A DNA stretch of 64,000 bases from Gammaproteobacteria bacterium (GCA_965237805.1 OZ250153.1:1333816-1397815), one strand, 5' to 3'. Counted from the first letter of the stretch, positions 1 through 17,270 are shown. The notes: generated by a model from the letters alone, not told the origin. Numbers and translations are program-made.

Positions 1-2469
1 GTGCCGCCGCCAACTGTAGCCCTCGTGCTGGGCCGTGCCCGAGCCCCTGTAGCCGCGCCATAAGCCCCAGCGCCCCAACCACTCGCTGTGCAATTGCAGC
101 TGCCAGAAAGTGCCGCTCAGGTAATACTTGACGGTGATCGGTGTCGCAGTTGCCGAGCCGACATTGGACAAGACTGCCAAGAGTGGCAAAGATTGCGCGG
201 TGTCGTCCGTTGCCAGTGTCAAAGAGAATGTGGATGGCAGCGCCGCGTCTGTGGCCAGCGGCAGCCAAGAAGATGTGGCGGTGCTGCCGTCCGTCCGCCA
301 GCCGAGAGCAATACTTAGCTGCGCCACTCCCGTGCCAGTGATGGGCCTGATCGTGGCAGTGCCAGTGCTGGCTATAGGGGTCGTGGCGGCCAGCTCCAGC
401 GGTAGCGCCGTCGCGCAGTTGTCCCTGAGCCGCTGTTCCCAAGGCACACCCTGTAGGCAGGCCCAAACTCGGTAGCTGCCAGTCGCGAGGCCGGTCGGTA
501 ATTGGCAATCGCGCCGCGCGAGGAGGCCGGCGCCAGCAGCCAATGTGGGCAGTTTGGCAGCGCCGCAGTCGAGCTGCTGGCGCCGTGCGGATGAGGAGTT
601 GGCGTAGTGCCAGTCCGTGCTGGCGGCATTGCCGTAGCCACCGTGCCGGCTGCGGTGCCAGCCGTGGTTCCGCAAGGCCCGCGCACGCTGCCATGGCCGT
701 TGCCAGCGATGCCAGTAGTGCACTCGGTTGGGGGCGATGAAATAACGCAGTTGGCTCGCTGCTGCCAGCGCAGCACCGGTATTCTCCGCCGCCAGCCACA
801 GCGACAGCGTGGCACTTGTGCCACTGCTCAGCACTGGCGTTGAGGTGGCCACGATGATGGTGGTGGCCGTCGACGCTGGCAGCCAGCTGCTAGCCGCCGC
901 CGGTGCACCACTTGCTGCCCAGTAGGCTTCGAGACGCAGATTGGGACGCGCCCCTGCAACCACGCTCAGCGACAGGCGCGCAGAGCAATTGTCCGCCCGC
1001 TGATGCTCCCACGGCACCGCTTGGACGCAGGCCCAGACCGAGTAGCTGCCAGCTGCCAGCCGCGCTGTCGGGACGCAGGATGCCGCCGCGGAGAAGCTGG
1101 CAGCTGTGGGAAGCGACGGCACCGAGCTCGGAGCGCAGGAGCTCAGGTGGATGGAGTGGAGTGCCGGATAGAGGAATCTCCCACGCCGCCAGCTGCGGTA
1201 CTCCGGGGCGATGTGGTAGGACAGTGAACTCGCCGCCGCCGTGGCGGTACCAGTGCTTGCCACTGTCAGCGATAGTGACAGCGTCGCGGTGCTACCGACC
1301 GTCAGTGTCAGTGCGGCTGTGTTGCTCGCCGCGCTGGGGATGCTCCATTGCAGCGCGGCAAAACTCAGATTGGGACGCGTGCCCTCGACCACGCTCAGCG
1401 CGAGCTGTGCCGAGCAGTTGTCGGCCCGCTGGCGCTCCCACGGCACTGCCTTGACGCAAGCCCAGATGCGGTAGTCCCCGATATCCAGACGCGAGGGCAG
1501 CTGACAGAGCGCCTGCGCGGAAAAGCGTCCCGCCGCCGCCAGCGCGGGTACAGCCACGGTATCGCAGCTCAAGTGCTTAGCCCACGACAGCCGGGTCACC
1601 GTGCCTCCCCCCCGCCACCAAGGGCGTGTGTACGTGCGCAGCTGCGCGATCCTATAGCTCAGCGATGTCGACGATGCGGTGGTGGTGCCGGTGTTATCCA
1701 CCGCCACCGACAACTCCAGCGTCGTGGCACCACCGGTTGCCAGCGTCAGAGTGTTCGTGCTGTTGGCAACGTTGTTCAGTCGTTGTAATTGTGTGCGTAG
1801 ATTTGGCTCCGGTCCTTGGCTCAGCGTCAATGCGATGCTCGCAGAGCAATTTTTGGCACTGCGCCGCCACCATCGCCAGCCGCGGGCCGACACTTTCGCA
1901 CAGGCCCACACTTGGTAATTGCCAGCTGTCAGCCTCGTCGGTAGCGAGCAGTCGCCGCGGACACCGAGCTGGGCGGTTGCGGCGAGGGTTGGTAGCGAGA
2001 GGGTGCCACCAGCGCCCGCCACCGTACAAAGCAGGCGGCGGCGGTACCAGCCGCGGTGGTTGCCCGCAGTGCCGGGGCTAGCCGCTATATAGGTATGCAG
2101 CTGAGCTGCGGGGAGGGTGGTCGTGCCCGCATTGCTCACGGCGAACCACAGCGAGACGCTGACCCTGCCGCCAGTGGCAAAAGCCAGTGTCGAAGTGGTG
2201 GTGACCGTGGTGGAGGAAAGCGCTGTCCAAGCGGTCGGGGCGGTGGTGTCCAGCGTCCAGCCCACAGTGGGCTGGGGCGCGGCGGTGGTGGCCGCGGATG
2301 CCAGTGGCGGAGCGAACACGCCCAGCAGCGCGGCCAGCGCCGCCACGCCGAGGGCGCGGCACGGAGTGTGTGGAGGAGGGCTACGGAAAGGAGGAGGGCG
2401 CGACCGGTAGTCGGCACTGTGGGGCAACGGCAAGCGGGGGCGCTGCTGGGCTGGAGGCATGGGCGACAT
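1..2469 (-). CDS. Secreted CARDB-like tandem-repeat protein. 3' end lies beyond the window's left edge (>=820 aa visible).
   Basis: Minus-strand translation from ATG ~2467-2469 (GGTGAG RBS upstream) gives a signal peptide (RALGVAALAALLGVFAPPLASA). After it come >=5 repeats of a ~146-aa module with motif G-x-Y-x-[VI]-W-A-C-[VL]-x-A-V-P-W-E-x-Q-R-A-D-N-C. The underlying DNA period is 438 bp (visible as spurious plus ORFs at 1241, 1679, 2117). It is not in the ORF track because there is no in-window stop; the other listed ORFs here are alternative-frame artefacts. Confidence 0.5.
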   Translation of the reverse strand, partial: MSPMPPAQQRPRLPLPHSADYRSRPPPFRSPPPHTPCRALGVAALAALLGVFAPPLASAATTAAPQPTVGWTLDTTAPTAWTALSSTTVTTTSTLAFATGGRVSVSLWFAVSNAGTTTLPAAQLHTYIAASPGTAGNHRGWYRRRLLCTVAGAGGTLSLPTLAATAQLGVRGDCSLPTRLTAGNYQVWACAKVSARGWRWWRRSAKNCSASIALTLSQGPEPNLRTQLQRLNNVANSTNTLTLATGGATTLELSVAVDNTGTTTASSTSLSYRIAQLRTYTRPWWRGGGTVTRLSWAKHLSCDTVAVPALAAAGRFSAQALCQLPSRLDIGDYRIWACVKAVPWERQRADNCSAQLALSVVEGTRPNLSFAALQWSIPSAASNTAALTLTVGSTATLSLSLTVASTGTATAAASSLSYHIAPEYRSWRRGRFLYPALHSIHLSSCAPSSVPSLPTAASFSAAASCVPTARLAAGSYSVWACVQAVPWEHQRADNCSARLSLSVVAGARPNLRLEAYWAASGAPAAASSWLPASTATTIIVATSTPVLSSGTSATLSLWLAAENTGAALAAASQLRYFIAPNRVHYWHRWQRPWQRARALRNHGWHRSRHGGYGNAASTDWHYANSSSARRQQLDCGAAKLPTLAAGAGLLARRDCQLPTGLATGSYRVWACLQGVPWEQRLRDNCATALPLELAATTPIASTGTATIRPITGTGVAQLSIALGWRTDGSTATSSWLPLATDAALPSTFSLTLATDDTAQSLPLLAVLSNVGSATATPITVKYYLSGTFWQLQLHSEWLGRWGLWRGYRGSGTAQHEGYSWRRH

Positions 2470-2615
2470 TTGACTCACCTCATGGCGGTACCATTCCCCC
2501 CCTTAAACACGGGACGACTATAGCCGACGCGGGCTGGTGGTGCAAGCTGGGGGGGCTCAGAGCCGGAGACCGGACGGCTACGGGAGCGCAGGGAGCCCAT
2601 CCCTGTCAACGCCCC

Positions 2616-5600
2616 CTATGACGTGTCGCGCCTCAAGTGCCGCTTCCCACCATATCGCTGCACGCAATAGGTCACCAGCAACAACAAGATGAGCAATGCC
2701 CAAGGGTCTATCACGCCACCACCATTTGGCACTGGGGGAGGTGTATCCGCCGTTTGCACGGCCACGGTGCCCGGATCGGCCACTTGCCCATTTTGAAAGC
2801 CATCGGCATCATTGGGGCCACCGTCCACTAAAGTGAGGAGCAGGCAGTCCCGACCTGCGAGCAGCCCCGCACCATAGCTGCTGGCCTCATCCGGACCGGG
2901 GCAAATGCCGTTGGCGGCACTTGCCGATGCCAAGGCATCGGCTCCACTGTCGTCAAAGCGAGCCCAATTGCCAGCCCGATCTTGCTTGAGATAGAGGGCA
3001 TTTGAGGGAATGGGGGTGGATAGGGGCAGCACGACGCGGTAGACATCGCTGTCGCCGCCGAGCACTTCAAAGTCATAGACCGCGCTGCGATCGACAATGT
3101 TGAATGTGTCGCTGCCGACGCTCACGCTGCCACCGATCGTAGACAACGCCACGCTCGAGGCGGCTAGCTCGGCGCGCTCTCCCAGACGCAATTGGGTGCC
3201 CACAGGGGACTGTGCCATGCGTGCCTCGGCAGGGTCGGATGAAATGGGCTGCGCGTTGGGCACATCCACATAGTCGCTCGCGTCAGGCACGCCGTCCATG
3301 TCTTGATCTGATACGCGGTCATCGTCGAGCGCCACCACCTTGAAGCGTTCTGCAACGTGGATGCTGGCATTGTCTGCATCGGTAATGATCAGGCTCAGCA
3401 GATAGGTCTTGCCAAGCTCCAACGCGGCTGGCGAGAAAGCAAAGGATGCGGAATCGGAGCCGCTGGCTTGGCCACTGAACAGCGCGCTGCTTCGATTTGG
3501 CAGAGGGCCGTTCACCGCAAAGGCAAAGGACAGGGCATCCCCATCCGGGTCTCTTGCCTGCGCCCTGACATCGACCGTGCCAGCGTCACGTGCCACCTGC
3601 TTGGAGGTTGTGTTGGATTGGCTGAGCTGCAACCTGTGGAACGTGGGCTTTAGATTGGCAGCGCCCGTTGGCAACACGCTCACTGCATGATTGGCGTTGC
3701 GTGGGCTTAGCGCCACTTGGGAGCTGAGCCCACTGCTCAATAGCGACAGGCGCACGGTGGCGGCATTGCCATCGGATGGCGAGAAGCCCGCTTTGATATC
3801 GAAAGTGACTGCTCCCAAGTCGCCCTGCGATAGGGTGATGGTGTTTGGTGGCGAGACATTGACCACATCGCTAGCGGACATGTTGCTGGAAAGCGACAGC
3901 GCATACGGTATGGAAACCGGGTAGAACGGGGCATTGCCGCTCAACCGTACCGGCACTTCCACGCTGAGGTTGGCGCTTGATGTTGGAGCACCGACACGCT
4001 GACTAGGCGCAAAGGCAACCAGCGGATGGATGTCCACCACCGATTGCGCCGTACCGACATTGCCAACGGTATCTTGGGCGGTCCATGTGATCTGGTGGCG
4101 GCCAGACGGCAAACGCATGCGGGCTCCAGCGGCAAAAGACCGTGAAGGTTGCAATCTGTTGCTGGTTGTCCTCAATACGCCCGTGGGTTGCACCGTGCCA
4201 TCGCGGGCATCAGCGGCGGTGGCGGACACCACGGCTGCCGTCATGATGCCCTGCGCCGTGAGCGCGCGGTCTGTGGCGGTGATGACCGGGGCGATGGTGT
4301 CTTTGACCACCGTGGCATAAATGGAAGCTTGGCCAGTTTGCTCTACCGTTATGGTGACATCACCCTCGCCGAGGGCCGACAGATCAAGAGGGCCCGTGTC
4401 CCATGTCCCTGTAGCACAGCTAGGGGTGCCGGTTCTGGACTGACTGCCGAGGCTAATGGAGTAGCTTACTGCCCCCCCAGTTGCGCAAGACCCAGATAGG
4501 CTGTAGCTGGATTGATTGCCGCTATAGATTGCCAGTCGGCATGAGTTATCACATGTTAGGGCTGTAGATTGGTCAATCGTGACGGTGACCCCCGAGGAGC
4601 AGTTGTTGGAGGTGCTAGACTCCCCCATTACTGCATCCACACAAGCCCCGATGTAATAGGTGCTTGGTGTTGCCAATGGGGGGACATCGCATCGTGCGGA
4701 TTCAAGACTGGTGAGATTGGTGGCAACGCTAGATACCAAGTCTGTACACAATTCAGTGTCTGCTGTTGAAATGCTCGCATCAGTCGACCACAGGTAGCGC
4801 ATGATGGTCTCTGCTGCTCTTGTTGTGCCAACGTTCCGTGCTATGGCGTTGATGGTGATGCGATCACCCGCTGCCACGGTAGTGGGATCGACAGAGACGG
4901 AATCCACCGTCCAGTCGGGGGCTCCGCCAACAATGGCTACTCCTTGGGAACAATTGTTGCTGGTGTTCGATTCAACGTTCAATGTGTCCACACAGGCACC
5001 GACGTAATAGGTCGAGCCCGCTGTAACTGATGTCGGTGCTGGGCAGGTCGCAGTTTCAGGACTGGTCTCACCCGCAGCACGGCTTGTTACGCGGTCTGTA
5101 CACAATTCAGTATCTGCTGTTGAAATGCTCGTATCGGTGGACCACAGGTAGCGCATAGTGGTCTCCGCTGCCGTTGCTGTGCCCGAATTTCGTGCTATGG
5201 CCTTGATGGTGATGTTGTCTCCTGCAGCCGCGATAGTGGGATTGACCGAGACGGAATCCACCGTCCAGTCGGGGGCGCCGGCACCACTCGCCGAGAAGGT
5301 GGCTGATATGGATTGGTTGGATTGGATCGTCAGTTGACAGTTGCCCGTGCCAGAACACCCGCCGCCACTCCACCCTGACAAGCTGGAACCGGCATCTGGG
5401 GATCCCGAGAGTTGTATGGAGGTTCCAGCATCGTAGCCATAACAGTTGGTTCCGCAACTAACGCCAGCAGGCGTAGGCGTCACGGTGCCGTTGCCAATGG
5501 CAGTCAGCGTTAATGTATAACGAGCGTTTATGGCCGCGTCATAACTCGCCAAACTGCTTGCGGCGTTCGTCCCGGTGTATACCACAAAATGCAAATGGTT

Positions 5601-8294
5601 GGCGGCACCAGTGGCGGTGCCAGACACATTGGAAATTTCGCCTATCTTTTGCCCTTTGGACACGCCGTCTCCATTACTGACTGCCTTATTCTCCATATGG
5701 AGGTATCCGCTCCACCAATAAGACCCGCTGGAGCCGTGCTTAATTAAGACTTGTCCATTTGTCCCGTCCGTGTTCAGCGAACCCCCGTAAGAGGTCTCAA
5801 CGACACCGTCTGCAACGGCATAAACGGGCATGCCATCATCAGAGTCATGGCTGGGGCAATTCAGGTTGGTATCCCAAGCATAGGTGTCATTGGCCTGCCC
5901 AATTCCACCCGTGCTTGAATGCCCGGGAAGTTGATGCTGATTAAAGCACCACGATGATCTTCCGTTAGCGCAACTGTTATCACAGGCTGCCAATGTGGTC
6001 ACAACATGGAGGTCGCCGTAGACTGGTGATGAGACGGATGACGGAGCACTATTAGGAGGGATGATCACCGGCACCCCCGGGGAGCAGTTGTTTAAGGTGC
6101 TGGACTCCCCGCTCACCGCTTCCACGCAGGCGCCGATGTAGTAGGTGGTGCCGCGCGTCGCCGACGAGGGCACCGTGCAGGTCTCGGATAAAGGGTCAGT
6201 CCCGCCAGCGGAGCGGCTTGACACGCTATCCGTGCACAACTGCATGTCGGATGGTGAAATCGTCGGGTCGTCGGACCAACGGTAGTGCATAGTGGTCCCC
6301 GCCGCCGCCGCCGTCCCCGAGTTCCTCGCCGTAGCGTAAATCGTGACCGACTGGCCCGGACCCACCGTGCTGGGGCTCACCAACACACTGTCCACCGTCC
6401 AGTCGGGGGCGCCGGCACCACTCGCCGAGAAGGTGGCTGATATGGATTGGTTGGATTGGATCGTCAGTTGACAGTTGCCCGTGCCAGAACACCCGCCGCC
6501 ACTCCACCCTGAAAAGCTGGAACCGGCATCTGGGGATCCCGAGAGTTGTATGGAGGTTCCAGCATCGTAGCCATAACAGTTGGTCCCGCAACTAACGCCA
6601 GCAGGCGTAGGCGTCACGGTGCCGTTGCCAATGGCAGTCAGCGTTAATGTATAACGAGCGTTTATGGCCGCGTCATAACTCACCAAACTGCTTGCGGAGT
6701 TCGTCCCGGTGTATACCACAAAATGCAAATGGTTGGCGGCACCAGTGGTGGTGCCAGACACATTGGAAATTTCGCCTATCTTTTGCCCTTTGGACACGCC
6801 GTCTCCATTACTGACTGCCTTATTCTCCATATGGAGGTATCCGCTCCACCAATAAGACCCGCTGGAGCCGTGCTTAATTAAGACTTGTCCATTTGTCCCG
6901 TCCGTGTTCAGCGAACCCCCGTAAGAGGTCTCAACGACACCGTCTGCAACGGCATAAACGGGCATGCCATCATCAGAGTCATGGCTGGGGCAATTCAGGT
7001 TGGTATCCCAAGCATAGGTGTCATTGGCCTGCCCAATTCCACCCGTGCTTGAATGCCCGGGAAGTTGATGCTGATTAAAGCACCACAATGATCTTCCGTT
7101 AGCGCAACTGTTATCACAGGCTGCCAATGTGGTCACAACATGGAGGTCGCCGTAGACTGGTGATGAGACGGATGACGGAGCACTATTAGGAGGGATGATC
7201 ACCGGCACCCCCGGGGAGCAGTTGTTTAAGGTGCTGGACTCCCCGCTCACCGCTTCCACGCAGGCGCCGATGTAGTAGGTGGTGCCGCGCGTCGCCGACG
7301 AGGGCACCGTGCAGGTCTCGGATAAAGGGTCAGTCCCGCCAGCGGAGCGGCTTGACACGCTATCCGTGCACAACTGCATGTCGGATGGTGAAATCGTCGG
7401 GTCGTCGGACCAACGGTAGTGCATAGTGGTCCCCGCCGCCGCCGCCGTCCCCGAGTTCCTCGCCGTAGCGTAAATCGTGACCGACTGGCCCGGACCCACC
7501 GTGCTGGGGCTCACCAACACACTGTCCACCGTCCAGTCGGGGGCGCCACTTTGATTTATTGTTACCCATGTGTATGTGTCACAATTGTTGTTTTTGTTGG
7601 ATTCCGTGCTTAGGAGACTTAAACAAGCCCCTATGTAGTACCGATCGCCTCGTATGACGCTTGAATCTATTGTGCACTTTGTGCTCAAAGAAAACGATTC
7701 TCCTGCTACACGGCTTGGTACATCGTCTGTACAAAGATCAAAATAATCGGTTGAACTTTTCTGCAAATAATATCTGATTGTTACGCCACGTGCAGGAGCT
7801 GCCCCTGCATTCCGCGCCGTAGCGTAAATAGTAATCCTGTCTCCTGGGTCTACGGAATTATCACTTACAGAAACTGAGTCACCAAGTGTCCAATCAGGGG
7901 TGCCATTATCGTGCAGCCATGTGAAGCTTGTTGAAGCTTCAGCAGACCAGCCTTCATAACTATTGGAACAATTCAGCTTGTCGCTGGGATTTATATTGCT
8001 ATCATCCCAACGAATTCGCCACCATTTATAAGTCGTGCCGGCCAAGTCCGCAGATGTAGGTCCTTTTGTTATTACCCCTGTTGCGCCATTGACTGCTTCG
8101 CATTGTTTGGTGCCCGCAGCTGTCCCCCGCACAGAAAGCCCTTGGCCATCGCTAAGATTAACAGTATCTGCTCCGGAATTCCTCACCACGATATGATCAT
8201 TGACTGCCAACGCCTGCGCCTCACCCATAGCAAAAAATTGCAGGCCGAACGCAACAAGTGCCAGCAACGTCATCTGGCGTATGTCATTTATCAT
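2616..8294 (-). CDS. Giant secreted multidomain protein (1892 aa): signal peptide, CARDB domains, 2x M23 (LytM-type) peptidase, 2x InlB-B-repeat-like, HYR, C-terminal GlyGly-CTERM-like anchor.
   Basis: Complete ORF. N-terminal signal peptide MTLLALVAFGLQFFAMGEAQA. CARDB end motifs (ESNTSNNCS, ESSTLNNCS). M23 motifs HDSDDGMPVYAVADG ... GYLHMENKAV ... HLHFVVY. GNGTVTPTPAGVSCGTNCYGY...FSGWSGGGCSGTGNCQL (InlB B-repeat-like). HYR-like DTIAPVITA...ITWTAQDTVGNVG. C-terminus PNGGGVIDPWALLILLLLVTYCVQRYGGKRHLRR. Confidence 0.85.
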   Translation of the reverse strand: MINDIRQMTLLALVAFGLQFFAMGEAQALAVNDHIVVRNSGADTVNLSDGQGLSVRGTAAGTKQCEAVNGATGVITKGPTSADLAGTTYKWWRIRWDDSNINPSDKLNCSNSYEGWSAEASTSFTWLHDNGTPDWTLGDSVSVSDNSVDPGDRITIYATARNAGAAPARGVTIRYYLQKSSTDYFDLCTDDVPSRVAGESFSLSTKCTIDSSVIRGDRYYIGACLSLLSTESNKNNNCDTYTWVTINQSGAPDWTVDSVLVSPSTVGPGQSVTIYATARNSGTAAAAGTTMHYRWSDDPTISPSDMQLCTDSVSSRSAGGTDPLSETCTVPSSATRGTTYYIGACVEAVSGESSTLNNCSPGVPVIIPPNSAPSSVSSPVYGDLHVVTTLAACDNSCANGRSLWCFNQHQLPGHSSTGGIGQANDTYAWDTNLNCPSHDSDDGMPVYAVADGVVETSYGGSLNTDGTNGQVLIKHGSSGSYWWSGYLHMENKAVSNGDGVSKGQKIGEISNVSGTTTGAANHLHFVVYTGTNSASSLVSYDAAINARYTLTLTAIGNGTVTPTPAGVSCGTNCYGYDAGTSIQLSGSPDAGSSFSGWSGGGCSGTGNCQLTIQSNQSISATFSASGAGAPDWTVDSVLVSPSTVGPGQSVTIYATARNSGTAAAAGTTMHYRWSDDPTISPSDMQLCTDSVSSRSAGGTDPLSETCTVPSSATRGTTYYIGACVEAVSGESSTLNNCSPGVPVIIPPNSAPSSVSSPVYGDLHVVTTLAACDNSCANGRSSWCFNQHQLPGHSSTGGIGQANDTYAWDTNLNCPSHDSDDGMPVYAVADGVVETSYGGSLNTDGTNGQVLIKHGSSGSYWWSGYLHMENKAVSNGDGVSKGQKIGEISNVSGTATGAANHLHFVVYTGTNAASSLASYDAAINARYTLTLTAIGNGTVTPTPAGVSCGTNCYGYDAGTSIQLSGSPDAGSSLSGWSGGGCSGTGNCQLTIQSNQSISATFSASGAGAPDWTVDSVSVNPTIAAAGDNITIKAIARNSGTATAAETTMRYLWSTDTSISTADTELCTDRVTSRAAGETSPETATCPAPTSVTAGSTYYVGACVDTLNVESNTSNNCSQGVAIVGGAPDWTVDSVSVDPTTVAAGDRITINAIARNVGTTRAAETIMRYLWSTDASISTADTELCTDLVSSVATNLTSLESARCDVPPLATPSTYYIGACVDAVMGESSTSNNCSSGVTVTIDQSTALTCDNSCRLAIYSGNQSSYSLSGSCATGGAVSYSISLGSQSRTGTPSCATGTWDTGPLDLSALGEGDVTITVEQTGQASIYATVVKDTIAPVITATDRALTAQGIMTAAVVSATAADARDGTVQPTGVLRTTSNRLQPSRSFAAGARMRLPSGRHQITWTAQDTVGNVGTAQSVVDIHPLVAFAPSQRVGAPTSSANLSVEVPVRLSGNAPFYPVSIPYALSLSSNMSASDVVNVSPPNTITLSQGDLGAVTFDIKAGFSPSDGNAATVRLSLLSSGLSSQVALSPRNANHAVSVLPTGAANLKPTFHRLQLSQSNTTSKQVARDAGTVDVRAQARDPDGDALSFAFAVNGPLPNRSSALFSGQASGSDSASFAFSPAALELGKTYLLSLIITDADNASIHVAERFKVVALDDDRVSDQDMDGVPDASDYVDVPNAQPISSDPAEARMAQSPVGTQLRLGERAELAASSVALSTIGGSVSVGSDTFNIVDRSAVYDFEVLGGDSDVYRVVLPLSTPIPSNALYLKQDRAGNWARFDDSGADALASASAANGICPGPDEASSYGAGLLAGRDCLLLTLVDGGPNDADGFQNGQVADPGTVAVQTADTPPPVPNGGGVIDPWALLILLLLVTYCVQRYGGKRHLRRDTS
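5277..7544 (-). repeat. Near-perfect tandem in-frame duplication (2 x 1134 bp = 378 aa each) inside the giant gene. Each copy carries CARDB, M23 peptidase and Ig-like repeat.
   Basis: Identical spurious plus ORFs at 5759..5944 and 6893..7078 (offset exactly 1134). Minus ORFs 5107..5457, 6226..6591 and 7360..7569 are near-identical. The two protein copies differ at about 5 residues. Confidence 0.85.
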
Positions 8295-8321
8295 ACACCC
8301 CCTCCCTTAAGAGGTGCATCA

Positions 8322-8933
8322 TCAACGCCACTTGTAGTGTGCTGATAATTGGAAGAACCGTAGCCTATCAAGCGATACGGCGACGAAGCCACAAGGAAGA
8401 CCAATTTCTGTGAACACGCAGACATCCAACCGGTCTTCTACATATTCAAAGTACTGGTACCGCATGTCTACGCCAATGGCGGAATCTGCTCCCATGGGGA
8501 CATCGATTCCCCCGAAGATCTGGATGCCACCAAGCAGCTTGTAATCATCGTCCAGCTTGACCTTGGAGCCGAATATAACTGCTTCATCTCTAATATCCAG
8601 CATTAGGCCGCCTCCACCACCCACATAGGTTTTGAACGGCAGGTCACCCAAAGGCAGGAAGAAGAAAGCATTGGCCATGAATTGAGGTGCGTGGAAATCG
8701 TCCCCACTCCAAAGATGGGCATACTCCAGTTCTATGCCCCACAACTCATCGAAAACTGTACCCAATGCCAGCCCCACGAAGCCACTATCACCAATCTCCA
8801 AAACCGGAACTTCCGTGGGCGAAGCTAGCCCTAGCGCGATTTTGGTATAGGCTTTGGTCTCTGCCTGTGCCAACGGCCCAAGCGTTGCCAGCAACAGCCC
8901 GGCCATGGCACAAAACAAAACACGAGCGCGCAT
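8322..8933 (-). CDS. Outer-membrane beta-barrel protein (OmpA/OmpW-like porin-family fold).
   Basis: Signal peptide MRARVLFCAMAGLLLATLGPLAQA (internal start of ORF 8322..8996). Alternating hydrophobic beta-strand pattern with aromatic-rich girdles. The C-terminus is not the canonical terminal F. Confidence 0.5.
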   Translation of the reverse strand: MRARVLFCAMAGLLLATLGPLAQAETKAYTKIALGLASPTEVPVLEIGDSGFVGLALGTVFDELWGIELEYAHLWSGDDFHAPQFMANAFFFLPLGDLPFKTYVGGGGGLMLDIRDEAVIFGSKVKLDDDYKLLGGIQIFGGIDVPMGADSAIGVDMRYQYFEYVEDRLDVCVFTEIGLPCGFVAVSLDRLRFFQLSAHYKWR

Positions 8934-8995
8934 ATGCCCGTGTCCGATCTGTTGGGCTTCATACGTGTCAATGTTCCTGGTGTTGCTCCTTGGCA

Positions 8996-9706
8996 TCAGT
9001 TGTCTTCGGCCACGAATTCGGCGGCACGACCCTGTAGAACAGCAGTAAGTGTTGGAGCCAAGGTGTCCATCACCTTGGTTGGCTTTTGAGGCGAGCCGTA
9101 ATCGGCAGAGAGAATGGCCAAAGTGTTCTCATGTGCCACATCGATCAAACGAACTGAAACGCTCGTGATGCCTATGTATTGCCCGCTAGCCGAGCTGAAT
9201 ATACCGAAGCCCACCTTCGAGCCTGTTTCCACAGTAAATTTTAAGACCGCGTCAGCGCCAGCTTGTTTGGCGACACGCAACATCGTGCGACTATCAGGAG
9301 CCTTGGCCGCCTCTTTTGGCAGATATTTTTCAAGATCGAACTGATCTAGAACCTCATAACCTGCCTTGGCAAGGGCGGCAACGGCACGGTTTTGCATCAT
9401 GCCTATGGATGAACTGCCGTGCTGGCCCCAAAAAACATGCTGGCCTTGCTGACCATCCCCACTCCCACTCGTGCTGGAGACCACTAAAAGCCGCTTGAAC
9501 TTTGCGACCCCCTGTGGGGAATAGTATTGAGTGGGAACTACTCGTATGTCCTTTCGCTCACCCAAAATTTTATCTGTGCCTGCTATAAGGCCAAGGAGTA
9601 TCAGATCAGCGCATCCCGAAAGCACAAGCCCAGATGCCAAGAGCGCACCAAGGAGATATGGTGGAAGTTTCCTTAGTTTTCTATTCGGGGGGGGGGGGGA
9701 TAACAT
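8996..9706 (-). CDS. Lipoprotein, possibly CsgG/LpoB/TolB-N-like fold. Gene carries an N-terminal homopolymeric tract.
   Basis: Internal start MLSPPPPNRKLRKLPPYLLGALLASGLVLSGC (lipobox LSGC) of ORF 8996..9949; the longer ORF would overlap the polA 3' end. The PPPP codons are encoded by a C13 run. Globular part has KRLLVVSSTSGSG, GADAVLKFTVE and VSVRLIDV patterns. Confidence 0.5.
   Translation of the reverse strand: MLSPPPPNRKLRKLPPYLLGALLASGLVLSGCADLILLGLIAGTDKILGERKDIRVVPTQYYSPQGVAKFKRLLVVSSTSGSGDGQQGQHVFWGQHGSSSIGMMQNRAVAALAKAGYEVLDQFDLEKYLPKEAAKAPDSRTMLRVAKQAGADAVLKFTVETGSKVGFGIFSSASGQYIGITSVSVRLIDVAHENTLAILSADYGSPQKPTKVMDTLAPTLTAVLQGRAAEFVAEDN
9686..9698 (-). repeat. 13-nt homopolymeric G/C tract inside codons 3-7 of the lipoprotein gene. 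Candidate slipped-strand phase-variation site.
   Basis: Plus strand G13 (about 9686-9698); minus strand reads ATG TTA TCC CCC CCC CCC CCG AAT. A +/-1 slip places a stop right after it (a 14-C reading gives ...GAA TAG). Confidence 0.6.
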
Positions 9707-9815
9707 TGCTGAGTATTCCTGTAACTGATTGGCGTTTCGGCTGGCTTCTGCTTGCCTATGCTGTCTGCACTGAACAGGCGCGAATCGCAACTGATGCAGG
9801 GGACGAACTAGCGAC

Positions 9816-9853
9816 ATCGTACCCCCCATCGCCCTAATGTCAACCCCCCCCCC
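9816..9853 (-). promoter_or_regulatory. Candidate sigma70 promoter of the lipoprotein gene, with homopolymers at and inside the -35/-10 spacer.
   Basis: Minus-strand sequence GGGGGGGGGG-TTGACA-ttagggcgatgggggg(16 nt)-TACGAT. -35 is consensus TTGACA; the spacer contains a G6 run; a G10 abuts -35. It lies between the polA stop (9894) and the lipoprotein ATG (9706). Confidence 0.4.
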
Positions 9854-9893
9854 AACATCCAAAAATCCTTCGCAACCAAGCCAAAGCCTCCCC

Positions 9894-12692
9894 CTAATGT
9901 GCCTCGTCCCAATTCTCCCCGTATTGACAGTCCACTTCCAGCGGCACATCCAGCTCGCCGCCGTCGGCTGTCACCATCAGCTCTGAGATGCGCTTGCCGA
10001 TCTCTCGCTCGGTGCCAGTCTCCACCTCCAGCACCAATTCGTCGTGCACTTGCAGGATCATCCGCGCTGGCACTTGCTCTGCTGCTAGCCAGCGATCCAC
10101 CGCCAGCATCGCCCGCTTGACGATGTCGGCGGCGGTGCCTTGGATCGGGGCGTTGATGGCGGCGCGCTCGGCGGCTTGGCGGCGCGCCTGATTGCGATCG
10201 CCAATGGCACCGACCGGTAGGCGACGACCGTAGAGGGTATGGACAGCGCCATCGCGGCGCGCCAGCTCGCGGGTGTGCTCCATGTAGTCCTGCACGCCGG
10301 GATAGCGTGCAAAATAGCTCTCCATATAGCGCCGCGCCTCGCTCTGCGGCACATCTAATTGGCGCGCCAAGCCGTAGGCCGACATGCCGTAGATCAGGCC
10401 GAAGTTGATCGCCTTGGCGTGGCGGCGCAGCTGGTTGTCCACCGCTGCCTCATCGCCGTCGGTGAATAGCTCGGCGGCGGTGGCTCGGTGGATGTCGCGC
10501 CCCTCTGCGAAAGCCTGCGAGAGGCCGCGGTCACCGGAGCAGTGGGCCATGATACGCAGCTCGATCTGTGAGTAGTCACAGCACAGCAGGCGGTAGCCTT
10601 CGGCCGGGATAAATGCTTGGCGGATGCGTCGCCCCTCGGCGGTGCGGATCGGGATGTTCTGCAGATTCGGATCGGCCGAGGACAGTCGCCCAGTGGCCGT
10701 GACCGCTTGGTGGAAGGAGCTGTGAACCCGACCACTGCGCACGTTGACGCAGGCTGGCAGGCGGTCGGCGTAAGTGGACTTGAGTTTGACTAGGCTGCGG
10801 TAGTCGAGGATCAGCTTGGCGATCTTGTGTTCGCGTGCCAGCTCCTGCAACACGGGCTCGGCGGTGGAGGGCTGGCCACTGGGTGTCTTGCGACCGGCTG
10901 GCAGACCCATGCGCTCGTAGAGCACCTCCTGCAGCTGTTTGGGCGAGTTTAGATTGAAGCGCGTCTCGGCCATATCATGTGCTTGGGCCTCGAGCGTCGC
11001 CGCCCGCTCGCCGAGTTCTGAGCCCAAGGCTTGCAGCTGTTCGCTGTCGATGCGAGCGCCCAAGCGCTCCATCTGCCCGAGTATCGCTGACAGCGGCACA
11101 TCCAACTCGCGATAGAGTGCGGCCAAGCGCGGGGCGCGCTTCAGTTCAGGCCATAGCACTTGGTGCAACTCCAAGGCCGCTACCGCATCCTCGACGGCGT
11201 AGGCGGCGGCTTCCTCCAGCCCCACTTGGCTGAAATTGAGCTGTGTGGCACCGTGGCCGACCACCTCCTTGTAGGAGGTCATTTGGCGTTGCAGATGGCG
11301 GGCGGCGAGGCTGTCTAAGTCGTGGCGACCGCCGGGGCGTAGCAGGTAGGATTCCAACATGGTATCGTGGCGCACGCCGCGCAGCTGGATGCCATGGTTC
11401 AGTAGCACGGCTCGGTCGTACTTCAGGTTCTGCCCCAGCTTGGAGAGCGTGGCGTCCTCCAGCAGTGGGCCGAGCGTTGCCCACACCCTTGCTGCTGGCA
11501 GCTGCCGTGGATCCAGCTCGCCCGCCAAGGAGCTGCTACCGCTGGCTGAGCCCAGCAGATCCGTGTTGGCTAGGCGGTGGCCGATCGGGATGTAGGCACC
11601 GGCACCGGGTTGCACCGCCAGCGCGATGCCGACCACCTCGGCTTCCATGTAGTGCAGGCTGGTGGTCTCCAAGTCCACCGACAGCAGCTCGGCCTTGCGC
11701 GCAGCCTCCAGCCAGCGCCCCAGTGTGGGCTCATCTAGCACCAGCTCCCAGTCGGGCGGGGGCACTGTGTTCACCGCCGCGCTGTCCATCTCGTCGTTGC
11801 CGCTGTCCAGCGCTTCGAGCCAGGTGCGGAACTCCAATTCCCGGTAGAGAGTGCGCAGGCGCTCGGTGTCCGGTGCGACTGTGCGCAGTGCCACCAAGTC
11901 CCGCTCCAGTGACACATCGCTTTTCAGCGTCGCCAGCTGGCGGGCGAGCAACACAGTGTCGCGATCCTCGGACAAGCCTTTGGCCAGTGCGTCGGCGCGA
12001 CGCATACCGCTGGATGCGATCTCGTCCAAGTGCTCATAGATGGTGTCGATGCCGCCCCAGCGGGCGATCAGCTCGCGGGCGGTCTTGGCACCGACGCCGC
12101 GTGCGCCAGCGTAGTTGTCGCTGCTGTCACCGACCAGCGCCAAGTAGTCGACGATATGCTCTGGCGGCACACCGAACTTCTCGCGTACGCCGTCGGCATC
12201 GAGCTGTACTGCCGCGCCGCCGCCGCGCCGCAGGCTGTCCTCGAGCAATACGCCCGCGGCGACCAGCTGCGCTAAATCCTTGTCGCCGGATGATATGACG
12301 ACCTCGCGACCGCCAGCGCGCGCCGTACGAGTTAAGGTGGCGATGACATCGTCGGCTTCGACCTCGGGCACTGCGAGCAGGGGCCAGCCCAGCGCCTCGA
12401 TCAGCTGGTATAGCGGCTCGATTTGCACTCGCAACTCGGTGGGCATCGACGGGCGGTTGGCCTTGTAGCTCGTTTCGAGCTGGTGACGGAAGGTGGGGCC
12501 GGGGGCATCGAAGACGACCACCATCTGGGCATCGGGGTAATCGCCGGCAAGGCGGCGCAACATGGCGATGACGCCGCGCACGGCACCGGTGGGCTGGCCG
12601 CTGTGGGTGCTGAGTGCTGGCAAGGCGTGGTAGGCACGGTAGAGGCAGGAAGAGCCATCCACCAAGACTACCGGGGCGGTGGGTTCAGGCAT
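9894..12692 (-). CDS. polA: DNA polymerase I (5'-3' exo, 3'-5' exo, polymerase domains).
   Basis: 932-aa ORF. N-terminus VVLVDGSSCLYRAYHAL (5' nuclease). C-terminal polymerase motifs (RRAAKAINFGLIYG, VHDELVLE). Confidence 0.95.
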   Translation of the reverse strand: MPEPTAPVVLVDGSSCLYRAYHALPALSTHSGQPTGAVRGVIAMLRRLAGDYPDAQMVVVFDAPGPTFRHQLETSYKANRPSMPTELRVQIEPLYQLIEALGWPLLAVPEVEADDVIATLTRTARAGGREVVISSGDKDLAQLVAAGVLLEDSLRRGGGAAVQLDADGVREKFGVPPEHIVDYLALVGDSSDNYAGARGVGAKTARELIARWGGIDTIYEHLDEIASSGMRRADALAKGLSEDRDTVLLARQLATLKSDVSLERDLVALRTVAPDTERLRTLYRELEFRTWLEALDSGNDEMDSAAVNTVPPPDWELVLDEPTLGRWLEAARKAELLSVDLETTSLHYMEAEVVGIALAVQPGAGAYIPIGHRLANTDLLGSASGSSSLAGELDPRQLPAARVWATLGPLLEDATLSKLGQNLKYDRAVLLNHGIQLRGVRHDTMLESYLLRPGGRHDLDSLAARHLQRQMTSYKEVVGHGATQLNFSQVGLEEAAAYAVEDAVAALELHQVLWPELKRAPRLAALYRELDVPLSAILGQMERLGARIDSEQLQALGSELGERAATLEAQAHDMAETRFNLNSPKQLQEVLYERMGLPAGRKTPSGQPSTAEPVLQELAREHKIAKLILDYRSLVKLKSTYADRLPACVNVRSGRVHSSFHQAVTATGRLSSADPNLQNIPIRTAEGRRIRQAFIPAEGYRLLCCDYSQIELRIMAHCSGDRGLSQAFAEGRDIHRATAAELFTDGDEAAVDNQLRRHAKAINFGLIYGMSAYGLARQLDVPQSEARRYMESYFARYPGVQDYMEHTRELARRDGAVHTLYGRRLPVGAIGDRNQARRQAAERAAINAPIQGTAADIVKRAMLAVDRWLAAEQVPARMILQVHDELVLEVETGTEREIGKRISELMVTADGGELDVPLEVDCQYGENWDEAH

Positions 12693-12824
12693 GTTGGCGC
12701 TGGGCGCTGGGGTGGATCATCGTCACAGCATTTTAGCGCTGGCTGGTGGGATGATCGGCAGTGGGGGCGGGCATTATATGTTTGTCTTGGAGAGTGGTCA
12801 TGCTACTACTAAACTTGCTGTATT

Positions 12825-13538
12825 TTGGCCGTGCTGCCCGCCTTTGGAGAATCAATTGTGATCGGTTTCCGGCGGGTGATGTCATGGTGTTCGCAATCTT
12901 TTATCGCCTCAGCTTTCCATTATCTGTACTATCATTCTTCCGACACATGGCAAAAAAATACTTTTCTCGGCTACCGTATTGCGCAGTGTCCACTGGATCT
13001 GCATCTCTACCAAGAGCTGGTCTATCGACTGCGCCCGGCGGCCATTATCCAAACCGGAGTGTTTGATGGGGGATCCATCCTCTATTTTGCTTCGCTGCTG
13101 GATCTGATGGGCATGCCTCCCAGCGCAGTGGTCTATGGTGTTGACATCGAACTTTCTGAGCGGGCGCGCAGTCTGAGTCACCCTCGGATCCGGTTGATCG
13201 AAGGGAATTCGGTTGATTCAGATTTGGTCGCGGACATCCGCGAAAATTTGCCGCCCGGAGATGTTTTGGTCTCTTTGGACTCTGATCACAGCAAAGCCCA
13301 TGTCGTGGCCGAGTTGGCCGCCTACAAGGATTTCGTCGGTGTCGGCTCTTATCTCGTCGTCGAGGACACGAATATTAACGGACACCCCGTCTTTGAATCT
13401 TTTGGGCCGGGTGGGGGGCCGTACGAGGCGGTGGCCGAGTTCTTGGTAGAGAACAAGAATTTCAAGCGTGACGATGCCTTGTGGAAGCGCAACAAGTTTT
13501 CCTTCCACCAATATGGTTGGCTCAAGCGGGTGCAGTAG
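12825..13538 (+). CDS. CmcI/cephalosporin-hydroxylase-family class I SAM-dependent methyltransferase (rhamnosyl O-methyltransferase-like).
   Basis: [55 protein letters not shown] ... YLVVEDTNI pattern typical of PF04989. Confidence 0.65.
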
Positions 13539-13610
13539 AGAGAGGGGGGCGCGGCTTCGCTTGGTTTGAGTAGACAGTCAATCAGCTGCGTGCGTATTGT
13601 GGCGTGTGCC

Positions 13611-13988: not shown

Positions 13989-14074
13989 ATCCGGTGGTGT
14001 GGTGTCAGCTGTCTGGTCATTTTACGCTGAGGGAGCTAAGGCGTGGGGATGAACCATGCTCGGCGGGCTCGCCG

Positions 14075-14151
<77 letters not shown>

Positions 14152-14396: not shown

Positions 14397-15928
<1,532 letters not shown>

Positions 15929-16170: not shown

Positions 16171-16205
16171 AATAACTCACCTCTCTCGGCACAGCCTTTG
16201 AGGCG

Positions 16206-17249: not shown

Positions 17250-17270
17250 GTGCGCCATGCTGGCTGCCCG

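What the first reader, a model, noticed from the sequence alone, without database searches (positions are those of the whole stretch)
2616..8294. 1892-aa secreted CARDB-M23-InlB-B-HYR giant protein with a GlyGly-CTERM-like C-terminal anchor
The architecture is unusual: a signal peptide, four CARDB domains, two complete LytM-type M23 metallopeptidase domains (HxxxD ... HLH), two InlB-B-repeat-like Ig modules, an HYR domain and an acidic Calx/cadherin-like region. The C-terminus reads ...PNGGGVIDPWALLILLLLVTYCVQRYGGKRHLRR, i.e. Gly-Gly, a hydrophobic helix and a basic tail. That is the signature of rhombosortase (GlyGly-CTERM) or exosortase-type sorting. Two peptidoglycan-hydrolase-type domains on a surface-sorted giant suggest an antibacterial, predatory or cell-wall-remodelling surface effector.
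Basis: partly seen in the sequence, partly recalled or inferred. Interest (0 to 1): 0.65.

Follow-up and report, generated by a model that had tools for sequence, protein, structure and literature searches.

The report
Giant surface protein carrying LasA-type lytic domains
This is a real 1892-residue secreted protein that probably holds two LasA-like cell-wall-cutting enzyme domains on a long stalk with a membrane-sorting tail; every part is of a known kind, but the combination, the enzyme subtype and the tail variant are unusual.

Summary
The ORF (2616-8294, minus strand, 1892 aa) is real and has a strong ribosome-binding site and a signal peptide. It contains five CARDB domains (not four), two M23 domains, two InlB-B (Flg_new_2) domains, a conserved ~525-aa C-terminal module ending in a choice-of-anchor U domain, and a Gly-Gly-Gly / hydrophobic / basic tail. 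The M23 domains belong to an uncharacterised subfamily (at least 245 clusters) with a LasA/beta-lytic-type first motif, H414-x15-D430. Together with H488, H522 and H524 this gives a complete catalytic set in both copies. The tail fails every curated sorting-signal model (GlyGly-CTERM, PEP-CTERM, JDVT-CTERM). The same C-terminal module in 472 loci, mostly marine Gammaproteobacteria, ends in bona fide GlyGly-CTERM tails, JDVT-CTERM tails or beta-barrel-like ends, so the tail position is a sorting-signal slot. No sorting protease lies in the window, and the rest of the genome could not be searched. A near-identical strain carries a different head on the same anchor, and one CARDB-M23-InlB-B unit was duplicated very recently. 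Most likely this is a surface-displayed, strain-variable bacteriolytic effector. It is a new variant of known kinds and moderately interesting.

The parts
2616..8294 (-). Whole ORF, 1892 aa plus stop codon
   Evidence: identical to database protein P0001
8298..8308 (-). Shine-Dalgarno sequence AAGGGAGGGGG, 3 nt upstream of the ATG
8211..8294 (-). Signal peptide, aa 1-28 (MINDIRQMTLLALVAFGLQFFAMGEAQA|LA)
   Evidence: n-h-c pattern and AXA motif read by eye (inference)
7899..8210 (-). N-terminal domain, aa 29-132; possibly SH3b-like (weak evidence)
   Evidence: No Pfam or NCBIfam hit. Best PDB hits are all SH3b domains but at E 0.13-1.1. The paralog P0003's equivalent domain hits SH3_3 at E 2.2e-4, below the gathering score. 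The AF2 model was unusable (pLDDT 41.6).
7554..7898 (-). CARDB domain 1 (aa 133-247)
7197..7544 (-). CARDB domain 2 (aa 251-366)
6654..7193 (-). M23 module 1 (aa 368-547), LasA-like subfamily. Proposed Zn ligands H414, D430, H524; catalytic H488, H522.
6417..6653 (-). InlB B-repeat (Flg_new_2) domain 1 (aa 548-626)
6063..6410 (-). CARDB domain 3 (aa 629-744)
5520..6059 (-). M23 module 2 (aa 746-925), with H792, D808, H866, H900 and H902 all present
5283..5519 (-). InlB B-repeat (Flg_new_2) domain 2 (aa 926-1004)
5234..7556 (-). Two copies of a 1134-nt tandem unit (CARDB-M23-InlB-B). The near-identical stretches are 6368-7556 and 5234-6422, with about 6 internal nt differences.
4929..5276 (-). 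CARDB domain 4 (aa 1007-1122)
   Evidence: best stretch 1008-1116
4575..4922 (-). CARDB domain 5 (aa 1125-1240)
4332..4574 (-). Cys-containing linker or Ig-like segment (aa 1241-1321). The strain-conserved part of the gene begins inside it, at about aa 1292.
   Evidence: (weak tandem-large-repeat and Ca_tandemer hits)
3999..4298 (-). Ig-like domain of the conserved C-terminal module (aa 1333-1432); Big_13/HYR-like
3651..3917 (-). Calx-beta-like domain (aa 1460-1548)
   Evidence: family-profile level; this sequence itself is sub-threshold
3330..3587 (-). PKD/cadherin-like domain (aa 1570-1655)
3264..3326 (-). Acidic TSP3-like Ca-binding-type linker DDDRVSDQDMDGVPDASDYVD (aa 1657-1677)
   Evidence: TSP3 families hit in single relatives; motif read by eye
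2757..3083 (-). Choice-of-anchor U domain core (aa 1738-1846; the NCBIfam best stretch is 1815-1846)
2619..2726 (-). Tripartite tail, aa 1857-1892: NGGG-VIDP-WALLILLLLVTYCV-QRYGGKRHLRRDTS
4420..9704 (.). Strain-variable cassette: the head of the gene (aa 1 to about 1291) plus two upstream ORFs. It is replaced in the otherwise 99.5%-identical contig L081.
   Evidence: GC 0.55 and 0.53 against 0.61 for the anchor and 0.66 for polA

Best explanation
The gene encodes a Sec-exported giant cell-surface protein built from three sections.

1. A strain-variable N-terminal head. It carries a possibly SH3b-like domain, CARDB spacers and two copies of a LasA/beta-lytic-type M23 zinc endopeptidase. Each M23 domain is followed by an InlB-B Ig-like domain.

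2. A conserved stalk/anchor module: Ig-like, Calx-beta-like, PKD-like, acidic Ca-binding-type linker, then choice-of-anchor U.

3. A tripartite Gly-Gly-Gly / transmembrane / basic tail.

Proposed steps:
- The signal peptide drives Sec export (inferred).
- The tail arrests in the inner membrane (inferred from hydropathy and the positive-inside tail).
- An intramembrane sorting protease cuts at the Gly run and the new C-terminus is lipid-linked. The most likely enzyme is a rhombosortase-type one, as for GlyGly-CTERM proteins. This is inferred by analogy with VesB and not shown here.
- The protein is moved to the outer surface, where the stalk presents the M23 heads (inferred).
- The M23 modules cleave peptide cross-links of peptidoglycan, or Gly-rich proteins, of neighbouring cells. 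This would give contact-range bacteriolysis or competition, as pseudoalterin, LasA and beta-lytic protease do in soluble form (inferred from homology).
- Recombination swaps heads between strains, and tandem duplication changes enzyme dosage (shown at the sequence level).
For: Architecture and start site.

M23 domains:
- The fold is M23 (AF2 pLDDT 82.7; Foldseek top hits are all M23, and LasA 3it5 has the largest coverage with TMq 0.51).
- hhalign to the verified LasA sequence gives 97% probability and E 1e-10, with D430 on LasA D36. With the deeper profile, W404/H414/D430/H488/H522/H524 fall on LasA W17/H23/D36/H81/H120/H122.
- These residues are conserved in 151-154 of 154 homologous domains.
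- LasA uses H(x)12D (PMC9662197). Pseudoalterin uses H21/D34/H120, is secreted by a T2SS and kills Gram-positive bacteria (PMC6962226).
- A relative, P0034, combines this M23 subtype with a GH25 lysozyme domain.

Anchor:
- Choice-of-anchor U is above its cutoff.
- The same module is found in 472 loci, mostly marine Gammaproteobacteria.
- It ends in tails that pass GlyGly-CTERM (L065, L011, L060), tails that pass JDVT-CTERM (L048, L057), or beta-barrel-like ends.
- Our tail scores 14.6 bits on a proxy HMM of the relatives' GG-type tails. That is about the leave-one-out median and above 200 of 200 motif-shuffled controls.
- The tandem neighbour gene in L081 ends in a more canonical SGGA-TM-RTRRRG tail.
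- The VesB mechanism is described in PMC6219818. Haft 2011 notes that the general HMM misses divergent true GlyGly-CTERM tails and that homologs with recognised tails are a valid clue (PMC3237569).

Head variability.
Against: - The tail has no hit to TIGR03501 or any other curated sorting model at E<=10, although control tails do.
- No rhombosortase, exosortase or CPBP protease lies in the 64-kb window. The rest of the genome and its T2SS could not be examined.
- The H414-to-LasA-H23 equivalence appears only in relaxed or global alignments.
- The LasA C-terminal subdomain that carries the oxyanion Tyr151 has no counterpart.
- MAFFT and HMMER alignments to M23B enzymes give a register two residues off (A428/N432 on the canonical H/D positions).
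- The M23 module is acidic (net charge -8), whereas many lytic M23 enzymes are basic.
- Nothing shows expression, localisation or activity.
Confidence: 0.5

Rival explanations
1. Unprocessed inner-membrane anchor. The C-terminal helix is simply a stop-transfer anchor. The protein stays in the periplasm tethered to the inner membrane, and the M23 modules remodel the cell's own peptidoglycan.
For: A signal peptide plus a C-terminal TM helix with a positive tail gives this topology by default. The tail fails all curated sorting models. Many M23 enzymes are housekeeping endopeptidases (PMC9662197).
Against: - About 14 beta-sandwich domains plus Calx-beta, TSP3-like and choice-of-anchor modules are typical of extracellular adhesin-like proteins. 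They would far exceed periplasmic dimensions (inference).
- Relatives fit the same module with beta-barrel-like C-termini or recognised surface-sorting tails.
- The head is swapped between near-identical strains and has atypical GC, which is unlike a housekeeping autolysin.
- The M23 subtype is closest to secreted bacteriolytic enzymes.
Confidence: 0.13
2. Adhesin or biofilm-matrix protein. The M23 modules act as peptidoglycan- or ligand-binding modules, or as regulatory 'degenerate LytM' domains, rather than enzymes.
For: - CARDB, InlB-B, Calx-beta, PKD and TSP3-like domains are adhesin-type modules.
- The canonical HxGxD is not matched by Pfam.
- DipM, a degenerate LytM domain, is the top Foldseek hit by E-value.
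- The LasA Tyr151 subdomain is absent.
Against: Degenerate LytM domains lose the HxH and other ligands (PMC9662197). Here H414, D430, H488, H522 and H524 are 98-100% conserved over 154 domains, which implies selection on a metal or catalytic site. The LasA alignment is significant.
Confidence: 0.15
3. The protein has the same surface-effector role, but the tail is the substrate of a different or undescribed sorting enzyme. Candidates are a Cys-less derivative of JDVT-CTERM handled by a CPBP/Rce1-like protease, or a lineage-specific system.
For: - The tail has a DP dipeptide at the start of the helix, as JDVT-CTERM does (10.1101/2023.06.07.544157).
- Relatives of the module use JDVT-CTERM.
- Our tail and its closest look-alike, L027, match no curated model.
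Against: - The invariant Cys that defines JDVT-CTERM is missing from the motif.
- There is no JDVT-CTERM hit at E<=10.
- JDVT-type tails score only 3-6 bits on the GG-tail proxy HMM, against 14.6 for ours.
- No CPBP protease is adjacent, although such proteases are usually close to their clients.
- A bona fide GlyGly-CTERM tail (L065, GGGGSLNPLW...) has an equivalent polar-Pro before the helix.
Confidence: 0.12
4. PEP-CTERM/exosortase substrate.
For: The architecture is tripartite, and glycosyltransferase genes are present elsewhere in the window.
Against: There is no Pro-Glu-Pro motif, no TIGR02595 hit at E<=10 and no exosortase among the window's polytopic ORFs. None of the 41 relatives' tails matched PEP-CTERM.
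Confidence: 0.02

Closest known systems
GlyGly-CTERM / rhombosortase / T2SS surface display (VesB of Vibrio cholerae; ExeM, Xds)
   Same: N-terminal signal peptide plus a C-terminal Gly-rich motif without Cys, a TM helix and a basic cluster. A hydrolase is the cargo. Homologs of the anchor module in marine Gammaproteobacteria carry tails that pass TIGR03501 (PMC6219818, PMC3237569).
   Different: Our tail scores below detection on TIGR03501. It has VIDP between the Gly run and the helix, and its basic cluster is delayed (QRYGGKRHLRR). The cargo is about five times larger than VesB. The presence of rhombosortase and a T2SS is unknown.
M23A bacteriolytic metalloproteases: LasA (staphylolysin), beta-lytic protease, pseudoalterin
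   Same: The first zinc His lies far upstream of the Asp (H-x12-D in LasA, H-x15-D here) in a similar local context (AHSNTGSG...FD versus GHSSTGGIG...WD). The YxH and HxH motifs are conserved. hhalign gives 97% probability, and LasA gives the best structural coverage.
   Different: The modules are embedded twice inside a giant anchored protein rather than forming a small free pre-pro-enzyme. An extra conserved N-terminal strand (W-x-F-N-Q-H409) is present. There is no LasA-type C-terminal subdomain (Tyr151). No specific Pfam or NCBIfam model covers the subfamily's N-terminal half.
Lysostaphin / LytM (M23B with an SH3b targeting domain)
   Same: M23 fold and catalytic HxH. A possibly SH3b-like domain in the same polypeptide.
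   Different: The SH3b assignment is weak.
Giant Ca-binding repeat adhesins of marine Gammaproteobacteria that carry the same C-terminal module (for example P0029, a 2782-aa cadherin-repeat protein, and loci L001-L080)
   Same: A collinear ~525-aa module: Ig-like, Calx-beta, PKD-like, TSP3-like, choice-of-anchor U, then an anchor.
   Different: Those proteins carry cadherin, PKD or other heads. Among 151 representatives of the M23 subfamily, only 3 have CARDB-like repeats and 2 an InlB-B-like domain. None has both, and none has two M23 modules.
JDVT-CTERM / CPBP (Rce1-like) sorting
   Same: Tripartite tail with a DP at the helix. It is used by some relatives of the module.
   Different: The defining invariant Cys is absent, there is no HMM hit, and there is no adjacent CPBP protease.

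Membership tests
Peptidase M23 (PF01551) | Profile HMM score above the gathering threshold | tested here: met
   93.1 bits against 28.7, two stretches
Peptidase M23 (PF01551) | HxH motif and the upstream catalytic His | tested here: met
   H522-L-H524 and H488 (copy 2: H900, H902, H866). Conserved in 150-154 of 154 homologous domains.
Peptidase M23 (PF01551) | First-motif Asp zinc ligand | tested here: met
   D430 aligns to LasA D36 (hhalign 97%, E 1e-10) and is conserved in 154 of 154 domains
Peptidase M23 (PF01551) | First-motif His zinc ligand | tested here: inconclusive
   H414 aligns to LasA H23 only in relaxed or global hhalign. It is conserved in 151 of 154 domains.
Peptidase M23 (PF01551) | M23 fold | tested here: met
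   AF2 pLDDT 82.7. All significant Foldseek PDB hits are M23/LytM domains.
   H438-D442 is not conserved. Pfam aligns only from profile position 11.
M23A (beta-lytic protease / LasA) | Long H(x)12D spacing of the first motif | tested here: inconclusive
   The spacing here is H-x15-D. The type is similar but the length differs (PMC9662197).
M23A (beta-lytic protease / LasA) | C-terminal subdomain with the oxyanion Tyr (LasA Tyr151) | tested here: not met
   Only about 23 residues follow HxH before the InlB-B domain. The alignment with LasA ends at around residue 139-157.
M23A (beta-lytic protease / LasA) | Bacteriolytic or Gly-X endopeptidase activity | not testable with these tools
   Needs biochemistry
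GlyGly-CTERM (TIGR03501) / rhombosortase substrate | C-terminal tripartite architecture: Gly motif without Cys, TM helix, at least one basic residue | tested here: met
   NGGG / WALLILLLLVTYCV / QRYGGKRHLRR. Criteria are from PMC3237569.
GlyGly-CTERM (TIGR03501) / rhombosortase substrate | Score at or above the curated cutoff of TIGR03501 | tested here: not met
   No hit at E<=10 for the tail alone or in context. Control tails L065, L011 and L060 score 18-19.5 bits against a cutoff of 15.5.
GlyGly-CTERM (TIGR03501) / rhombosortase substrate | Homologs in the same protein family with a recognised GlyGly-CTERM | tested here: met
   14 of 41 tails of module relatives hit TIGR03501, and three of those tested individually pass the cutoff
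GlyGly-CTERM (TIGR03501) / rhombosortase substrate | Rhombosortase (TIGR03902) encoded in the same genome | not testable with these tools
   None in the 64-kb window. The source genome is absent from genome contigs and from the contig index.
GlyGly-CTERM (TIGR03501) / rhombosortase substrate | Several proteins per genome sharing the tail (many-to-one) | tested here: inconclusive
   The tandem neighbour gene in the sister strain L081 ends SGGA-TM-RTRRRG. The rest of the proteome was not seen.
PEP-CTERM (TIGR02595) / exosortase | Pro-Glu-Pro motif and an HMM hit | tested here: not met
   No PEP motif and no hit
JDVT-CTERM (NF033191) / CPBP protease | Invariant Cys in the motif, with DP nine residues later; HMM hit; adjacent CPBP protease | tested here: not met
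   DP is present but the motif has no Cys. There is no HMM hit, whereas L048 and L057 score 42-45 bits. There is no polytopic protease nearby.
Choice-of-anchor U (NF041766) | HMM score above the curated cutoff, located just before a C-terminal anchor | tested here: met
   38.7 and 41.6 bits against a cutoff of 32, ending at aa 1846, 11 residues before the Gly run
CARDB (PF07705) | HMM score above the gathering threshold | tested here: met
   91.8 bits, five stretches
Flg_new_2 / divergent InlB B-repeat (PF18998) | HMM score above the gathering threshold | tested here: met
   46.6 bits against 23.6, two stretches
HYR (PF02494) | HMM hit | tested here: not met
   No hit at E<=10 in this protein. 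Only 4 of 38 relatives hit HYR at the equivalent domain, while Big_13 hits 13 of 38.
Calx-beta (PF03160) | HMM hit | tested here: inconclusive
   No hit in this protein. 15 of 38 relatives hit, and the family profile matches NCX1 CBD structures at aa 1460-1548.

The most novel reading that the evidence does not exclude
A contact-range bacteriolytic 'weapon'. LasA-type peptidoglycan endopeptidases would be tethered to the producer's outer surface at the tip of a roughly 50-nm Ca-stiffened stalk, with head cassettes exchanged between strains and enzyme copy number changed by tandem duplication. The protein would be sorted by a GGG-x2-DP-type tail that defines a not-yet-modelled subclass of C-terminal sorting signal. 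The enzyme module would also represent an uncharacterised M23 lineage (at least 245 clusters at 50% identity) with an H-x15-D zinc site.
Probability: 0.2. Interest if true: 0.7.

Novelty: new variant of a known kind. Interest (0 to 1): 0.42.

Why it matters
If the reading is right, it extends two known themes. Secreted M23A enzymes such as pseudoalterin, LasA and beta-lytic protease mediate predation on Gram-positive bacteria as soluble proteins. Here the same chemistry would be cell-tethered, so lysis would be local and its benefits private. That bears on how marine bacteria compete on particles and in biofilms.

It also flags an M23 subfamily that current domain models only half cover, and whose zinc site is easy to mis-call as degenerate. 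It flags a tripartite tail that curated sorting-signal models miss too.

The head-swapping on a conserved anchor is a compact example of cassette evolution in giant surface proteins.

If the reading is wrong, this is one more large multidomain adhesin-like protein, which is common in these bacteria.

Tried and rejected
- 'Degenerate M23 with H->A428 and D->N432': suggested by MAFFT against a canonical M23 and by hmmsearch against LysTt72. Set aside because the LasA-based hhalign puts D430 on the zinc Asp and H414 on the zinc His. The two-residue register conflict remains formally unresolved without coordinates.
- 'Very rare M23 subtype': suggested by the word-based search, which found only 6 extra hits. 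Corrected by the exhaustive search, which found 245 representatives at E<=1e-30.
- Structure of the N-terminal domain: model unusable (pLDDT 41.6), so no fold search was run on it.
- Short-segment phmmer of the first-motif region against the PDB gave only chance-level hits (UBR box, LysTt72).
- Source organism: the exact-protein contig look-ups failed for P0001 and P0003. The genome-contig scan returned only relatives at 34% identity or less. The JGI metagenome scan found nothing. The taxon is therefore only inferred as gammaproteobacterium-like, from gene content and the module's distribution.
- Sorting enzyme in the window: the two unannotated upstream ORFs are an OMP-barrel-like protein and a lipoprotein-like protein, not proteases. 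All polytopic ORFs are cytochrome oxidase subunits, transporters, a channel or GT87.
- Promoter and terminator scans around the gene were not above the shuffle expectation in any useful way.
- PEP-CTERM/exosortase: rejected (no motif, no hit).
- Assembly artefact as the cause of the internal duplication: considered unlikely because the copies differ at about 6 positions and have distinct junctions. Only long reads would settle it.
Full report
**Observation.** The window has a single uninterrupted ORF at 2616..8294 on the minus strand, 1892 aa. It is identical to a database protein (P0001) recorded on a 1.73-Mb contig. A strong Shine-Dalgarno sequence (AAGGGAGGGGG, 8298-8308) lies just upstream of the ATG. 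The N-terminus has a signal-peptide pattern ending AQA|LA (read by eye).

Pfam finds Peptidase_M23 x2, CARDB x5 and Flg_new_2 (divergent InlB B-repeat) x2. NCBIfam adds a choice-of-anchor U domain above its curated cutoff, ending at aa 1846. The only strongly hydrophobic 19-residue window in the whole protein is at aa 1857-1879. The C-terminus is therefore a genuine Gly-run / helix / basic-cluster tail: NGGGVIDPWALLILLLLVTYCVQRYGGKRHLRRDTS.

It is wrong on three points: the CARDB count (five, not four), the HxxxD motif, and the HYR and Calx/cadherin calls, which are not detectable in this sequence itself.

**Internal duplication.** Residues 250-627 and 628-1005 (CARDB-M23-InlB-B) are a 1134-nt tandem unit with about six nucleotide differences. 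The duplication is therefore very recent. The closest relative, P0002 (77% identical over the shared part), has only one such unit.

**The M23 modules.** Pfam aligns the M23 profile only from position 11, which misses the canonical HxGxD. Across 154 homologous domains H438 is W/F/N/S/Y and D442 is A/N/D/K, so it is a chance match.

A word-based search suggested a rare subtype. The exhaustive profile search found 245 representatives at E<=1e-30 and 511 at E<=1e-10, all matching the full 173-position profile including an N-terminal extension. Nearly invariant residues are W404, F406, Q408, H409, H414, D425, A428, W429, D430, N432, D441, H475, H488, H522 and H524.

An AF2 model of aa 368-548 is confident (pLDDT 82.7). 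All significant Foldseek PDB hits are M23 domains, and LasA (3it5) gives the largest coverage (TMq 0.51 over 182 columns).

Alignments to M23B enzymes put canonical H/D on A428/N432, which would suggest a degenerate site. However, hhalign against LasA gives 97% probability (E 1e-10) and puts D430 on the LasA zinc ligand D36. I verified the LasA sequence as identical to 3it5_A. With the 154-domain profile and relaxed or global alignment, LasA W17/H23/D36/H81/H120/H122 fall on W404/H414/D430/H488/H522/H524. The local contexts are alike: LasA GAHSNTGSG...SFD against our PGHSSTGGIG...AWD.

The literature states that LasA has a long H(x)12D first motif (PMC9662197). Pseudoalterin chelates zinc with H21/D34/H120 (PMC6962226). 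I therefore read both modules as catalytically complete LasA/beta-lytic-like M23 domains with H-x15-D. The second copy has H792, D808, H866, H900 and H902.

Three caveats apply. The His equivalence rests on low-confidence alignment columns. I could not obtain coordinates. The LasA C-terminal subdomain with Tyr151 is absent.

**The C-terminal module and the tail.** P0029, a 2782-aa cadherin-repeat protein, shares the last ~550 residues collinearly and ends in EGGSGVLGRLITVALLSLCWFRRRKCLA. A genome scan with the module alignment found 472 loci, nearly all in marine Gammaproteobacteria (Alcanivoracaceae, Alteromonadaceae, Hahella, Shewanella, Pseudoalteromonas, Colwellia, Saccharospirillum and others). 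None was more than 34% identical, so the source genome is not in that collection.

Scanning 38 relatives' modules showed Calx-beta in 15, Big_13 in 13, PKD in 11 and HYR in 4. The family profile hits an Ig domain, NCX1 Calx-beta domains and PKD/cadherin domains in the PDB. These map to aa 1333-1432, 1460-1548 and 1570-1655.

After this module the relatives end in one of several ways:
- GG-rich / TM / basic tails
- Cys-containing GGGC...DP...TM...RRR tails
- Ends with a terminal aromatic residue that look like outer-membrane beta-barrels
- A further domain ending ...YDF

Of 41 tails, 14 hit GlyGly_CTERM, 15 hit MYXO-CTERM and 6 hit JDVT-CTERM. Tested singly, L065, L011 and L060 pass the GlyGly-CTERM cutoff, and L048 and L057 pass JDVT-CTERM strongly. 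Our tail and its closest look-alike, L027, hit nothing. Membership in GlyGly-CTERM by the curated model is therefore not met.

The tail does satisfy the architectural criteria of Haft and Varghese: a Gly motif without Cys, a TM helix and a basic residue. Those authors note that the general HMM misses divergent true members (PMC3237569).

On a proxy HMM built from 27 GG-type tails of relatives, our tail scores 14.6 bits. The leave-one-out median is about 14.8, motif-shuffled controls reach at most 10.7, and JDVT-type tails score 3-6. The DP before the helix recalls JDVT-CTERM, but the defining Cys is missing. A bona fide GlyGly-CTERM relative (L065, GGGGSLNPLW...) has an equivalent polar-Pro.

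**Context and sorting enzyme.** Upstream on the same strand lie three genes:
- An OMP-barrel-like ORF (8322-8996; OMP_b-brl E 0.0019), whose stop is 27 nt from our ATG.
- A lipoprotein-like ORF (8996-9949).
- polA.

Downstream, a second CARDB protein runs off the window start (1-2469, minus strand).

All polytopic ORFs in the window are cytochrome oxidase subunits, a Na:Ala symporter, an ion channel or GT87 enzymes. No rhombosortase, exosortase or CPBP protease is present in these 64 kb. The rest of the genome could not be reached.

**Strain comparison.** Contig L081, which carries P0002, compares with the window as follows:
- 99.5% identical to window 9704-18110.
- 93.6% identical to window 1-4420.
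- Window ~4420-9704 is replaced. This region holds the head of our gene up to about aa 1291 plus the two small ORFs.

The replaced region has lower GC (0.55 and 0.53) than the anchor (0.61) and polA (0.66). In L081 the tandem downstream giant gene, apparently frameshifted in a 6x assembly, also ends in a choice-of-anchor-U-like module. Its tail is more canonical: ISGGAVGALSSLGLLLLLLLSLVALPARTRRRG. This species therefore has at least two adjacent giant CARDB proteins with GG-type tripartite tails, which fits the many-to-one logic of dedicated sorting systems.

**Mechanism.** The best-supported reading has these steps:
- Sec export.
- Arrest of the tail in the inner membrane.
- Cleavage at the Gly run and lipid attachment by a rhombosortase-type enzyme.
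- Transfer to the outer surface, as shown for VesB (PMC6219818).
- Display of two LasA-type endopeptidase heads on a stalk of Ig-like and Ca-binding-type domains.
- Local cleavage of peptidoglycan cross-links, or Gly-rich proteins, of neighbouring cells, by analogy with pseudoalterin-mediated predation (PMC6962226).

Only the sequence-level anatomy, the conservation of the catalytic residues, the family-wide 'choice of anchor' and the head swapping are shown here. Export, processing, localisation and activity are inferred.

The rivals are an unprocessed inner-membrane anchor with a periplasmic autolysin role, an adhesin with non-catalytic M23 modules, and sorting by a different or unknown enzyme. 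PEP-CTERM is effectively excluded.

**Novelty and score.** Every component belongs to a known kind. What is unusual is:
- The combination. Of 151 representatives of the M23 subfamily, 3 have CARDB-like repeats and 2 an InlB-B-like domain; none has both, and none has two M23 modules.
- The uncharacterised LasA-like M23 lineage.
- The unmodelled tail variant.
- The very recent duplication and cassette exchange.

I found no paper that links GlyGly-CTERM with M23. I rate it a new variant of a known kind with moderate interest (0.42).

Noticed in passing
window 1-2469 (minus strand); L081 12547-17100: A second giant CARDB-repeat gene lies in tandem immediately downstream and runs off the window start (CARDB 25.3 bits). 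In the sister strain L081 its continuation, in another frame (an apparent frameshift in a 6x assembly), has a choice-of-anchor-U-like module and a more canonical tail, SGGAVGALSSLGLLLLLLLSLVALPARTRRRG.
   Followed up: partly
window 8322-8996 and 8996-9949 (minus strand): Two small ORFs sit directly upstream of the giant gene. One has a signal peptide and a weak OMP beta-barrel match (E 0.0019). The other is lipoprotein-like (LSGC lipobox). They have low GC (0.53) and are absent from the otherwise 99.5%-identical contig L081. They belong to the swapped cassette and could be partners of the surface protein.
   Followed up: partly
window ~20900-30400 (minus strand): A type IVB pilus / ICE-like gene cluster: PilL2 domain (TIGR03748, above cutoff), PilN-type secretin, GspE/PilB-like ATPase, GspF-like platform protein and a prepilin. 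A GT2 glycosyltransferase (18047-20365), tRNA-Ile (14076-14152) and a GC dip to 0.495 at 18-20 kb are nearby, which suggests an integrated element.
   Followed up: no
window 61424-62665 and ~63030-64000 (plus strand): A polytopic GT87-family glycosyltransferase-like gene has a 93%-identical tandem paralog that runs off the window end.
   Followed up: partly
P0003 (not in the window; reported on a contig of the same length, 1,725,584): A 2134-aa paralog has more than 15 CARDB repeats and two canonical M23B-type domains (GGHSGIDFD...HVHVE). It has an SH3_3-like N-terminal domain (E 2e-4) and a dockerin-like C-terminus instead of a TM tail. The genome apparently holds a small family of CARDB-decorated M23 giants with different anchors.
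   Followed up: partly
window 50000-52000: The lowest GC in the window (0.476) with strong AT skew (-0.21). It contains only short ORFs (50410-50895, 51145-51690) and was not examined.
   Followed up: no
loci L001-L080: The conserved C-terminal module is followed by at least four different endings in different genomes: GlyGly-CTERM, JDVT-CTERM, beta-barrel-like ends and an extra domain ending ...YDF. A few further tails (for example L001 GPNSAGVIALFWWLMLVAPLWRRRFV and L027) match no curated sorting model.
   Followed up: partly
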